Assembly: GCA_043797265.1 (NCBI GenBank)
Contig: JAZDPV010000012.1
Span: 58,016 to 122,015 of the forward strand
Direction of reading: 5' to 3'
DNA: 64,000 nucleotides
DNA from: an archaeon
GTDB lineage: Archaea; Nanobdellota; Nanobdellia; Pacearchaeales; GW2011-AR1
Positions within the stretch are counted from its first letter, which is position 1; every line of letters begins with the position of its first letter. Under the pieces are notes generated by a model. The model was given only the letters and a program-made list of their open reading frames with translations. It was not told where the DNA came from and searched no databases. Shown piece by piece: positions 21,074 through 52,476 of this stretch. A program made the position numbers and the translations under genes.

Positions 21074-21146
21074 GCCTCCGTAGCTCAGTTGACAGAGCAT
21101 TTGCTTCGTAAGCAAAGGGTCACGGGTTTGAATCCCGTCGGAGGCT
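21074..21146 (+). tRNA. tRNA-Thr(CGT)
   Basis: Acceptor GCCTCCG/CGGAGGC; anticodon arm TTTGC-TT-CGT-AA-GCAAA; T-loop TTTGAAT. Confidence 0.93.
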
Positions 21147-21257
21147 TAGATTCAAACCTGTGACGTCACGGGTGAGCAATTCGCTTCGAGCGAAAACTAT
21201 TCAAAAAATTATTTTCGCGAAATGCAAATTGCGAATAAAAGAATCCCGTCGGAGGCT
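21147..21257 (+). mobile_element. tRNA-associated unit: inverted T-arm + hairpin core + duplicated tRNA 3' end
   Basis: gattcaaacctgtgac (antisense T-arm) | gtcacgggt | 67-nt core | gaatcccgtcggaggct. Confidence 0.75.
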
Positions 21258-21264
21258 TAATGTC

Positions 21265-21367
21265 AAATTTAATTTTTAGCAGGTTCAGGCAAGGCGCGAG
21301 GTTGCGTGGCGTATACTAATACGCGAGCGGAATCGCAACGAAGCATCAACCGCTAAAAATTAAATTT
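21265..21367. repeat. MITE-like element with 16-bp perfect terminal inverted repeats
   Basis: aaatttaatttttagc ... gctaaaaattaaattt, with nested internal stems; right TIR overlaps the copA stop. Confidence 0.65.
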
Positions 21368-26421: not shown

Positions 26422-26497
26422 AGCGGGGTAGAGCAGCCTGGTCAGCTCGCGAGGCCCATAACCTCGAGGTCACGTGGTTCAAATCCCGTCCCCGCTA
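26422..26497 (+). tRNA. initiator-type tRNA-Met(CAT)
   Basis: A1-U72 acceptor AGCGGGG/CCCCGCT; D-stem GAGC/GCTC; CGAGG-CC-CAT-AA-CCTCG. Confidence 0.88.
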
Positions 26498-26711
26498 TTG
26501 ATTTGAAACACGTGACTCACGTGGCGAGTCGATTCGCTTTGAGCAAAACTAAATCTTAAAAATTTTGCGAAATGCAAATCGCGAGTAAAATCCCGTCCCC
26601 GCTATTGATTTGAAACACGTGACTCACGTGGCGAGTCGATTCGCTTTGAGCAAAACTAAATCTTAAAAATTTTGCGAAATGCAAATCGCGAGTAAAATCC
26701 CGTCCCCGCTA
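26498..26711 (+). mobile_element. two identical 107-bp tRNA-associated units (inverted T-arm + hairpin core + tRNA 3' end)
   Basis: Units 26498-26604 and 26605-26711 each end in aatcccgtccccgcta; core homologous to 21174-21240. Confidence 0.8.
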
Positions 26712-52377: not shown

Positions 52378-52476
52378 TGGCCCCGACGGGATTTGAACCC
52401 GCGACACCTGGATAACTTCCCCAGAAATACATCCAGGGTAAAAGTCCAGTGCTCTACCAAACTGAGCTACGGAGCC
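52378..52476 (-). tRNA. tRNA-Lys(TTT) with 25-nt BHB intron at 37/38 (52414-52438)
   Basis: Acceptor GGCTCCG/CGGGGCC; CTGGA-CT-TTT-A[intron]A-TCCAG; CUUU/GAAG 4-bp helix with two 3-nt bulges. Confidence 0.92.

What the first reader, a model, noticed from the sequence alone, without database searches (positions are those of the whole stretch)
21147..21257. tRNA-tailored element after tRNA-Thr: inverted T-arm + shared hairpin core at the T-loop + duplicated 3' end
Seen: right after tRNA-Thr comes gattcaaacctgtgac (reverse complement of the tRNA's own gtcacgggtttgaatc, one mismatch). It is followed by a direct copy gtcacgggt, a 67-nt nested hairpin in place of the T-loop TT, and then gaatcccgtcggaggct (tRNA 3' end). 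The same architecture follows tRNA-Met at 26498, with a homologous core (gag..attcgctt.gagc..aaaacta...ttt.gcgaaatgcaaat.gcga.taa) but flanks matching that tRNA. Known: tyrosine-integrase elements target T-loops and duplicate 3' ends. I know of no such element carrying an inverted, target-specific T-arm. Inference: a non-autonomous ~110-bp element whose ends are copied from each target (fold-back/template-switch synthesis), or a cis-antisense module affecting pre-tRNA folding or processing, or a decoy att site.
Basis: partly seen in the sequence, partly recalled or inferred. Interest (0 to 1): 0.85.

Follow-up and report, generated by a model that had tools for sequence, protein, structure and literature searches.

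The report
Hairpin element that rebuilds tRNA ends
Behind the threonine and methionine tRNA genes of this tiny archaeon sits a small mobile DNA hairpin inside a dead copy of the tRNA's tail, joined to the working gene by an inverted copy of the tRNA's own arm, a scar that shows how insertions into essential genes can be survived.

Summary
It is one copy of a family. A conserved 63-nt hairpin occurs 20 times in this 625-kb DPANN genome, and 19 copies lie at tRNA genes.

The hairpin alone is mobile. Copies that match at 62 of 63 and 60 of 61 positions sit at different tRNAs with different flanks. The flanks are copies of the local target:
- an inverted copy spanning the insertion site;
- a direct copy, mostly 8 nt;
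- a copy running from the insertion site to just past the gene end.

The same pattern occurs at D-loops, anticodon loops and the 3' ends of protein genes. Two to four target bases are lost at the hairpin.

New here:
- The intact gene lies 5' of the hairpin's defined strand in 67 of 77 tRNA-linked copies.
- In this genome all 20 hairpins lie on the G-poor DNA strand whatever the tRNA's direction. This also holds in G005 (6 of 6) but not in G158 (10 of 21).

Best reading (the mechanism is inferred): a replication-linked, strand-biased hairpin insertion, followed by resynthesis of the gene end and fold-back ligation.

It is not an intron, a classical att site or an IS200-type element. The scan met this class before on other DNA. 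My literature searches found no description.

The parts
21074..21146 (+). Intact tRNA-Thr(CGU), the working gene copy
   Evidence: Rfam RF00005, 68.1 bits, full model; ARAGORN
21119..21134 (+). Segment H of the intact tRNA (variable-loop end, T-stem 5' strand, T-loop), the source of the inverted copy
   Evidence: I3
21147..21148 (+). 2-nt trailer that is part of the duplicated end
   Evidence: Both copies of the end run through these 2 nt (D1)
21149..21164 (+). H': inverted copy of H. It spans the insertion site and includes the T-loop bases that the interrupted copy lacks
   Evidence: 16 nt, 94% complementary to 21119-21134 (I3); own-tRNA score 13.5 against a maximum of 11 for other tRNAs
21165..21172 (+). 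A: 8-nt direct copy of tRNA nt 46-53. It forms a palindrome with the end of H'
   Evidence: I9
21173..21235 (+). Mobile hairpin core (family R1): terminal Y-R pair, tandem G.A pairs, two helices and a conserved internal loop
   Evidence: Covariance model match 21173-21237, 74.8 bits; helices supported by covariation; 62/63 identical to the copy behind tRNA-Arg(UCG) on another contig
21236..21240 (+). Variable 3' junction filler (2-5 nt in other copies, usually Y-A) standing where 2-3 T-loop bases are missing
21241..21259 (+). B: dead copy of the tRNA from nt 57 to 2 nt past the discriminator
   Evidence: D1
26422..26497 (+). Intact tRNA-Met(CAU)
   Evidence: Rfam, 56.2 bits
26500..26606 (+). 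Unit 1 behind tRNA-Met: H' 26500-26516, A 26517-26524, hairpin 26525-26585, filler 26586-26587, B 26588-26606
   Evidence: model match 26525-26587, 68.6 bits
26607..26713 (+). Unit 2, identical tandem copy of unit 1
   Evidence: D1 (100% identity, spacing 107); model match 26632-26694

Best explanation
SHOWN
- A genus- and family-restricted 63-nt DNA hairpin is the mobile unit.
- It lands in loop or stem-loop DNA close to the ends of genes. Most targets are tRNA T-loops; others are D-loops, anticodon loops and the last ~30 nt of protein genes.
- It removes 2-4 target bases.
- The tRNA-specific flanks are not carried by the element. They are fresh copies of each target.
- On the hairpin's strand the product reads: intact gene end, then an inverted copy spanning the insertion site (H'), then a direct copy of about 8 nt (A), then the hairpin, then 2-5 nt of filler, then a copy from the insertion site to just past the gene end (B). 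This is a forward-inverted-forward triplication that leaves a working gene beside a dead, interrupted end-copy.
- In non-genic DNA the hairpin sits without these duplications.

INFERRED (mechanism)
1. The hairpin enters one DNA strand during replication. In this genome that is always the G-poor strand.
2. Its 3' end is joined or extended onto the target with a few filler bases.
3. The interrupted strand is open about 8 nt 5' of the hairpin. The gene end is resynthesised from the untouched complementary strand by strand displacement.
4. The displaced flap, protected by the hairpin, is not removed.
5. The new 3' end copies back across the site to the flap's 5' end (this makes H') and is ligated to it.
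6. Only products that restore the essential gene survive. This explains why duplications stop just past the gene end and why sites lie near gene ends.
For: Family and tRNA linkage
- There are 20 copies in G000, and 19 are at tRNAs.

The hairpin
- 88.9% of cells are paired against 78.2% in shuffles. 14 of 16 pairs show compensatory changes. 0 of 500 shuffles reach the observed value.
- The terminal pair covaries: CG 30, TA 18 of 62.

Mobility of the core alone
- Thr-CGU against Arg-UCG: 62/63 identical. Gly-CCC against Ile: 60/61 identical. In both pairs the flanks differ.

Flanks copied from the target
- H' scores 8 or more against its own tRNA in 37 of 51 units.
- H' abuts A as a palindrome in 28 of 52 strictly parsed units. 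A is 7-9 nt in 26 of those 28. H' runs 3 nt or more beyond A in 19 of 28, so it was templated by an uninterrupted target.
- 3 nt are missing in 12 of 24 units.

Polarity
- The intact gene is 5' of the hairpin's plus strand in 51 of 60 copies and in 16 of 17 copies in G158.
- 5'-end units are mirror images of the 3'-end units.

Strand bias
- All 20 of 20 G000 hairpins are on the G-poor strand, with GC skew -0.27 to -0.47.
- G005: 6 of 6, on both sides of a skew switch.
- All 8 copies in relatives that are opposite to their tRNA follow the skew.

Other targets
- The same architecture is seen at two protein-gene ends, and plain insertions are seen in three non-genic places.
Against: - No step of the mechanism was observed directly, and no run holding this DNA was found.
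- The strand rule is not general. G158 shows 10 of 21. Relatives show 39 of 51 with short flanks, and 17 of 24 when the doubtful ones were re-measured.
- Which strand is leading is not established. No G000 contig has a skew switch, and the orc1/cdc6 gene of G005 lies in uniform skew.
- 10 of 77 copies break the polarity rule.
- I saw no microhomology at the junction between the gene end and H', so an end-joining route is equally possible.
- Whole-gene tandem copies that include the promoter (Trp, Phe, Cys, Arg) need very long duplications or another route.
- How free hairpins would arise is unknown.
Confidence: 0.6

Rival explanations
1. A host or element tyrosine recombinase (XerA-like, integron- or CTX-like) integrates the folded single-stranded hairpin into stem-loop DNA. 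The partial tRNA copies are att-type products.
For: Tyrosine recombinases are present in all 10 genomes checked, and G000 has two XerA-type paralogues. tRNA arms are classical integrase targets. The hairpin is folded DNA with a strand preference. In T-loops the junctions fall at the edges and the centre of the symmetric TTCGAA loop in both orientations.
Against: There is no difference in recombinase content between 5 hairpin-rich and 5 hairpin-free genomes. No sequence is shared between the hairpin ends and the many different targets. Target bases are lost and filler is added at one junction only. Site-specific recombination does not explain an inverted copy templated by the intact target. Fifteen or more tRNAs, plus protein genes, are hit.
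Confidence: 0.15
2. A cut-and-paste enzyme or a double-strand break leaves a hairpin-capped DNA end about 8 nt from the insert. Off-centre opening of that cap gives the palindrome (as with P-nucleotides), and end joining to a broken sister copy gives the duplication.
For: The H'/A junction is a true palindrome with 0-3 extra bases. I saw no microhomology at the other junction. Filler bases are present.
Against: It needs two breaks at defined places in two sister molecules. H' carries the bases that the interrupted copy lacks, so the cap would have to form on a heteroduplex. No hAT- or RAG-like gene was looked for or seen. The polarity and strand bias are left unexplained.
Confidence: 0.1
3. 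RNA-level element: either a mobile BHB-type tRNA intron, or a 3'-trailer or antisense module that controls pre-tRNA folding or processing.
For: Insertion points coincide with positions where archaeal non-canonical introns occur (recalled; review PMC4090602 seen only in a search listing). The whole Thr locus folds well as RNA: -73.8 kcal/mol, z -6.3. The genome does have a BHB-type intron, in tRNA-Lys.
Against: The interrupted copies lack most of the tRNA and lack 2-4 loop bases, so splicing cannot give a tRNA. The hairpin lies opposite to its tRNA in 12 of 60 tRNA-linked copies (7 downstream, 5 upstream) and in 7 of 17 in G158. It also lies at protein genes and in intergenic DNA. G-T (33) and A-C (27) mismatches are balanced, so there is no single folding RNA strand. 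There is no Rfam family.
Confidence: 0.04
4. Assembly or amplification artefact (chimeric inverted joins at tRNA genes).
For: Inverted joins are a known chimera type (recalled). Arrays in two relatives contain runs of N. No reads could be laid.
Against: The same ordered architecture, with covarying hairpins, occurs at more than 70 sites in more than 20 independently assembled genomes.
Confidence: 0.01

Closest known systems
MITEs and REP/REPIN-type palindromic repeats (including Rickettsia palindromic elements)
   Same: Short, non-coding and multi-copy. It has a hairpin shape with covarying arms, is restricted to a lineage, and has near-identical copies at different sites.
   Different: There is no fixed short target duplication on both sides. 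Instead, target bases are lost, and on one side there is a long, gene-end-sized direct copy plus an inverted copy. There is a strong preference for gene ends and tRNA loops. No partner transposase was found.
IS200/IS605 single-strand transposition and its hairpin derivatives (PATEs; REP with RAYT)
   Same: Hairpin DNA. [quoted passage not shown] There is no classical target duplication at the hairpin itself.
   Different: The Y1 transposase is absent from 5 of 5 hairpin-rich genomes, and G000 holds only one truncated copy. There is no conserved 4-5-nt target. Target bases are lost. Templated flanks are unknown for that family.
Partial tRNA genes (attL/attR) left by integrase-bearing elements in archaeal and bacterial tRNA genes
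   Same: A working tRNA gene is followed by a direct copy of its 3' part. The sites lie in T- and anticodon loops. Partial duplication on integration is described in PMC9897764 (passage) and in the abstract of PMC3293823.
   Different: The insert is 63 nt with no gene. The same insert serves 15 or more tRNAs and has flanks made to measure. It carries an extra inverted arm, has mirror-image 5' versions, and also occurs at protein-gene ends.
Archaeal non-canonical (BHB) tRNA introns and their proposed transposition
   Same: Similar short structured inserts occur at several tRNA positions and are shared between different tRNAs.
   Different: Here the insert sits in dead partial copies, in both orientations, with loop bases missing, beside an uninterrupted gene.
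Forward-inverted-forward triplications and templated fold-back insertions made by replication template switching or alternative end joining (recalled from eukaryotic and bacterial genetics; no paper read here)
   Same: The same topology: two direct copies with a short inverted copy between them, and a palindromic junction with a few extra bases.
   Different: Those are sporadic rearrangements. Here the pattern recurs at each insertion of one small element and is only 10-40 nt in size.
Insertion with long target duplication of gene cassettes (named in earlier scan notes e1-4810521 and e1-4810523 for this genome; the paper was not read)
   Same: An insertion near a gene end with a duplication that keeps the gene intact, in the same genome.
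   Different: Those inserts carry genes. Whether they share the inverted piece or the machinery was not established. My look at the five IVP-family genes gave nothing.

Membership tests
MITE (DDE-transposase derived) | Terminal inverted repeats | tested here: met
   The hairpin arms pair and covary
MITE (DDE-transposase derived) | Short direct target duplication of fixed length abutting both ends | tested here: not met
   The left flank ends at target nt n and the right flank resumes at n+3 to n+5. Three nt are missing in 12 of 24 units
MITE (DDE-transposase derived) | A longer autonomous relative with the same ends | tested here: inconclusive
   All model matches in 151 genomes span the full 64-position model and are 54-76 nt long. 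No dedicated search for separated ends was made
IS200/IS605 derivatives / REP-RAYT | Y1 (HUH) transposase in the genome | tested here: not met
   PF01797 is absent in 5 of 5 hairpin-rich genomes. One truncated 103-aa copy in G000 has no hairpin nearby
IS200/IS605 derivatives / REP-RAYT | Insertion next to a conserved 4-5-nt target, without loss of target bases | tested here: not met
   The replaced bases vary (mostly pyrimidine-rich and ending in C) and are lost
IS200/IS605 derivatives / REP-RAYT | Orientation bias with respect to the replication strand | tested here: inconclusive
   20 of 20 in G000 and 6 of 6 in G005, but 10 of 21 in G158. Fork direction is not known
tRNA-integrating elements with tyrosine integrase | Integrase encoded within the inserted DNA | tested here: not met
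   The whole insert is about 110 nt with no ORF
tRNA-integrating elements with tyrosine integrase | Direct repeat of the tRNA 3' part at both ends | tested here: met
   D1/D2
tRNA-integrating elements with tyrosine integrase | One element, one tRNA target, with the att copy carried by the element | tested here: not met
   Near-identical hairpins sit at different tRNAs with different flanks. Fifteen tRNA genes are hit in G000
Archaeal BHB tRNA intron | Interrupts a complete gene whose exons rejoin to a full tRNA | tested here: not met
   Most interrupted copies hold only 17-40 nt of the tRNA and lack 2-4 loop bases
Archaeal BHB tRNA intron | Sense orientation only | tested here: not met
   The hairpin is antisense to its tRNA in 12 of 60 tRNA-linked copies (7 downstream, 5 upstream) and in 7 of 17 in G158
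Integron attC site | R''/L''-L'/R' boxes and a neighbouring IntI with its extra domain | tested here: inconclusive
   The two strong recombinases are XerA-type (235.8 and 231.4 bits, above the 220 cut-off) and fall below the integron-integrase cut-off. The boxes were not modelled

The most novel reading that the evidence does not exclude
The hairpin may be a parasite of the replication fork that needs no transposase. A free hairpin DNA gets built into the discontinuously made strand like a primer. It resists flap removal. It is fixed only when the cell's own resynthesis and fold-back ligation rebuild the gene end. This would be a new way for selfish DNA to spread, and a general source of gene-end duplications and fragmented tRNA genes in small-genome archaea and bacteria.
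Probability: 0.15. Interest if true: 0.9.

Novelty: new variant of a known kind. Interest (0 to 1): 0.72.

Why it matters
It shows how a minimal genome with single-copy tRNA genes can be colonised by insertions into essential genes without losing them: each surviving insertion carries a made-to-measure repair scar. The scar has several regular features. There is an inverted copy templated by the intact site. The direct copy is mostly 8 nt. Filler occurs at one junction only. Duplications end just past the gene end. The polarity is consistent, and in two genomes so is the strand. These features give concrete, testable constraints on an unknown insertion and repair pathway in DPANN archaea, for which there is almost no experimental genetics. 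The finding also bears on the origin of tRNA gene fragments, split and interrupted tRNA genes, and gene-end duplications. In addition, it warns annotators about dead tRNA tails.

Tried and rejected
- **Reads.** No public run holds the stretch. The best share was 0.13 of the sampled words, and no RNA holder is listed. Laying four runs gave only short pieces from relatives, with none on the unit and no joints.
- **Rfam.** No family matches apart from tRNA.
- **RNA-strand test.** G-T 33 against A-C 27, so there is no signal.
- **Partner enzyme.**
  - The Y1 transposase is absent from both hairpin-rich and hairpin-free genomes.
  - Tyrosine recombinases are present in both sets.
  - One reverse transcriptase is present in G000; I did not follow it up.
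  - The splicing endonuclease family PF01974 was not detected in the 83%-complete genome.
- **Gene-cassette link.** The five PF05635 genes show no hairpin ends or matching repeats.
- **Leading or lagging strand.** This could not be assigned.
  - No skew switch occurs in any of the 10 G000 contigs of 20 kb or more.
  - The orc1/cdc6 gene of G005 lies in uniform skew.
  - Long ORFs lie on the G-rich strand in 276 of 423 cases, which is only an indirect hint.
- **Palindrome before hairpin.** tRNAs without units lack inverted copies, except one likely scar behind Thr-UGU.
- **DNA fold of the unit.** It is only modestly better than shuffles (z -2.1; 6 of 200 shuffles fold as well).
- **Literature.** Full-text searches listed no description of such an element. 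Supplementary files were not consulted.

Full report
**1. Observation**

The window holds tRNA-Thr(CGU) at 21074-21146 and tRNA-Met(CAU) at 26422-26497. Behind tRNA-Thr, in order, lie:
- a 2-nt trailer;
- a 16-nt reverse complement of the tRNA's own 21119-21134, with one mismatch (I3);
- an 8-9-nt direct copy of the T-stem 5' side, which forms a palindrome with the inverted piece (I9);
- a 63-nt hairpin with a 5-nt tail;
- a 19-nt copy of the tRNA from T-loop nt 57 to 2 nt past the discriminator (D1).

The interrupted copy lacks two to three T-loop bases. The inverted piece contains them. Behind tRNA-Met the same 107-nt unit stands twice in tandem at 100% identity. It missed only the second Met unit.

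**2. Organism**

- The genome is 624,983 bp in 18 contigs and 83% complete.
- It encodes ABCE1/RLI.
- tRNA-Lys carries a 26-nt intron at the canonical position.

These features indicate a DPANN-type archaeon. Earlier scan notes also call it that.

**3. It is a family**

- An HMM built from the two window cores finds 19 copies in the genome. Of these, 18 lie within 300 nt of an ARAGORN tRNA.
- A covariance model finds 19.
- Together there are 20 copies.
- One apparent exception, on contig C6, lies behind an intron-bearing tRNA-Asn that ARAGORN missed. Only one copy, on C14, is not at a tRNA; it sits inside another palindromic repeat and has no duplication.
- Fifteen tRNA genes carry units. There are 31 ARAGORN tRNAs plus two intron-bearing ones. 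tRNA-Leu(AAG) has the same architecture around a different insert made of 33-nt repeats.
- The model matches 11 of 151 genomes sampled from the order. All are in one family, and most are in this genus, with 1-23 copies each.

**4. The hairpin**

In 46 aligned copies:
- 88.9% of cells are paired, against 78.2% in shuffles.
- 14 of 16 pairs show changes on both sides.
- No shuffle out of 500 reaches any of the five measures.

The stem reaches the very ends. There is a covarying terminal pair (CG 30, TA 18 of 62), then tandem G.A/A.G pairs (52 and 53 of 62), then two helices separated by a conserved internal loop. G-T (33) and A-C (27) mismatches are balanced, so nothing points to one folding RNA strand. 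No Rfam family matches.

**5. What moves and what is copied**

Hairpins behind tRNA-Thr(CGU) and tRNA-Arg(UCG) are identical at 62 of 63 positions. Those behind Gly(CCC) and Ile are identical at 60 of 61. Their flanks nevertheless match their own tRNAs. So the hairpin is the mobile part, and the flanks are made from each target.

- **H' tracks its own tRNA.** Across 51 units, the inverted piece H' scores 8 or more against its own tRNA in 37. In 29, fewer than 5% of other tRNAs reach the own score.
- **H' goes with units.** In G000, inverted copies occur only where units are or were (8 of 31 tRNAs; 7 with units, one likely scar).
- **Geometry of the junction.** In a strict automatic parse, 28 of 52 units have H' abutting the direct copy A as a palindrome. 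A is 7-9 nt in 26 of the 28 and exactly 8 nt in 15. H' reaches 3 nt or more beyond A in 19 of 28. Three target bases are missing in 12 of 24. Many units that failed the parse have mismatched, older H' pieces.
- **The two junctions differ.** The 5' junction of the hairpin is tight. The 3' junction carries 2-5 variable bases, usually Y-A, and these differ even between near-identical hairpins.
- **T-loop insertions.** Forward hairpins join at 53|54 and 56|57. Reversed ones join at 56|57 and 60|61. This fits the symmetric TTCGAA loop.

**6. Other targets**

- 5'-end units are exact mirror images: a copy of the tRNA 5' end, the reversed hairpin, a D-loop copy, its inverted copy, and then the intact tRNA (Leu-CAA and Leu-UAG).
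- Anticodon-loop and variable-region insertions exist.
- Whole extra tRNA copies interrupted by the hairpin exist too, some with a duplicated promoter (Trp, Pro, Arg, Phe, Cys).
- In relatives the same order (gene end with stop codon, H', A, hairpin, copy of the gene end) stands at two protein genes.
- Three copies in non-genic DNA (one in G000, two in relatives) show no duplication.

The duplication thus goes with essential targets, and it ends within a few bases of the gene end.

**7. Polarity and strand**

Define the hairpin's plus strand as the one on which the filler and the end-copy B follow it.
- The intact gene lies on the 5' side in 51 of 60 tRNA-linked copies (downstream/same 46, upstream/opposite 5, against 7 and 2).
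- The same holds in 16 of 17 copies in G158.

In G000 every one of the 20 copies has its plus strand on the G-poor DNA strand, with local GC skew -0.27 to -0.47, whatever the tRNA's direction. That makes 18 independent sites. tRNAs on that strand carry 3' units. tRNAs on the other strand mostly carry 5' units. The three copies that break the polarity rule (Arg downstream, Asn, Pro upstream) still obey the strand rule, and they sit in older dead copies.

| Genome set | Hairpins on the G-poor strand |
|---|---|
| G000 | 20 of 20 |
| G005 (on both sides of a skew switch) | 6 of 6 |
| Relatives, 800-nt flanks | 39 of 51, including all 8 copies opposite to their tRNA |
| Doubtful relatives, re-measured with larger flanks | 17 of 24 |
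| G158 | 10 of 21; both ends of same-strand tRNAs are colonised |

The strand rule is therefore strong in the two genomes with uniform, strong skew and not general.

I could not establish which strand is leading. Long ORFs lie on the G-rich strand in 276 of 423 cases. Under the usual rule (recalled), this would make the G-poor strand the discontinuously made one.

**8. Mechanism (inference)**

Four facts constrain it:
- The inverted piece must have been templated by an uninterrupted target.
- The palindrome centre lies a fixed ~8 nt from the hairpin.
- Only the 3' junction has filler.
- The intact copy is 5' of the hairpin.

A scheme that fits all four:
1. The hairpin enters the nascent or exposed strand at the fork. 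Its 3' end is joined or extended onto the target.
2. The interrupted strand is open ~8 nt upstream.
3. Strand-displacement synthesis from that 3' end restores the gene end from the intact complementary strand.
4. The hairpin-protected flap persists.
5. The new end copies back to the flap's 5' end and is ligated.
6. Selection keeps only products with an intact gene. This explains the near-minimal duplications and the preference for sites near gene ends.

None of these steps was observed. An end-joining route through a hairpin-capped break, or a recombinase acting on folded DNA, remains possible.

**9. Enzymes**

- G000 has two XerA-type recombinases, one divergent integrase and one truncated IS200-type gene with no hairpin nearby.
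- The Y1 family is absent in 5 of 5 hairpin-rich genomes and in 5 of 5 hairpin-free genomes.
- Tyrosine recombinases are present in all ten.
- No specific partner emerged.

**10. Comparison and novelty**

The element resembles MITE/REP-type repeats in form. It resembles IS200/IS605 elements in strand bias (passages of PMC5027513). It resembles integrase att scars in leaving tRNA tails (PMC9897764 passage; PMC3293823 abstract). It fails a defining test for each of these (see Membership tests). It cannot be an intron.

Searches of the held literature listed no description.

Earlier notes of this scan describe the same class on other DNA. One of them shares words with this hairpin and calls it a target-duplicating hairpin element of DPANN archaea. 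So the class is not new to the scan. New here are:
- the quantified inverted piece;
- the ~8-nt offset;
- the one-sided filler;
- the polarity rule;
- the strand rule in two genomes.

Noticed in passing
window 52378-52476 (-): tRNA-Lys(UUU) has a 26-nt intron at the canonical 37/38 position. Rfam finds it and ARAGORN does not. The splicing endonuclease family PF01974 was not detected in this 83%-complete genome.
   Followed up: partly
window 21265-21367: Directly behind the Thr unit lies a 103-nt structure with perfect 16-nt inverted arms 71 nt apart (I2). No second copy was found in the genome by short-word BLAST.
   Followed up: partly
G000 contig C18:81228-81475 (locus L026): tRNA-Leu(AAG) is followed by the same architecture (inverted T-loop, direct copy, copy of the 3' end) around a different insert of 2.7 tandem 33-nt repeats. 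Here the duplication also includes the inverted piece.
   Followed up: partly
G000 contig C9:270-470 (L025); L009: A second hairpin family has the same terminal pair, G.A pairs and Y-A tail but a different interior. It alternates with the first family in tandem arrays behind tRNA-Ile and, in G008, behind tRNA-Thr(UGU).
   Followed up: no
G000 contig C14:21990-22130 and C17:3540-3640: Another nested palindromic repeat (AT-rich outer arms, GC-rich inner hairpin) occurs behind tRNA-Cys and on C14. On C14 the R1 hairpin is inserted at its inner base without any duplication.
   Followed up: partly
G000 contig C18:8700-8800 (L018): The interrupted extra copy of tRNA-Pro upstream of the working gene differs from it by paired changes that keep the first acceptor pair and a T-stem pair. 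This is what would be expected if the copy came from another lineage's functional gene.
   Followed up: no
G000 contig C2:12689-12700 (L027): tRNA-Thr(UGU) carries only a 9-nt inverted T-loop copy 3 nt behind the gene and no unit. Its orthologues in G013, G002 and G008 carry full units. It is probably the scar of a lost unit.
   Followed up: partly
G000 C1:25989-26471 and C18:84904-85377: There are two XerA-type recombinase paralogues (235.8 and 231.4 bits against a cut-off of 220) in a 0.6-Mb genome. The second lies 1.6 kb from a truncated IS200-type gene.
   Followed up: partly
G000, five loci (L072-L076): There are five genes of the 23S-rRNA-IVS-protein family PF05635, one of them with an internal TAA. 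This fits earlier scan notes of mobile cassettes in this genome.
   Followed up: partly
G005 contig C3, about 28-30 kb (L118): GC skew on one strand flips from about +0.4 to about -0.35 within a few kb. This is a candidate replication origin or terminus in a close relative. The single orc1/cdc6 gene of that genome lies elsewhere, in uniform skew.
   Followed up: no
L033 (G001:C48) and L064 (G021:C29): Runs of N lie inside tandem arrays of units behind tRNA-Arg(UCU) and tRNA-Lys(UUU). They are either scaffold gaps caused by the repeats or withheld bases.
   Followed up: no
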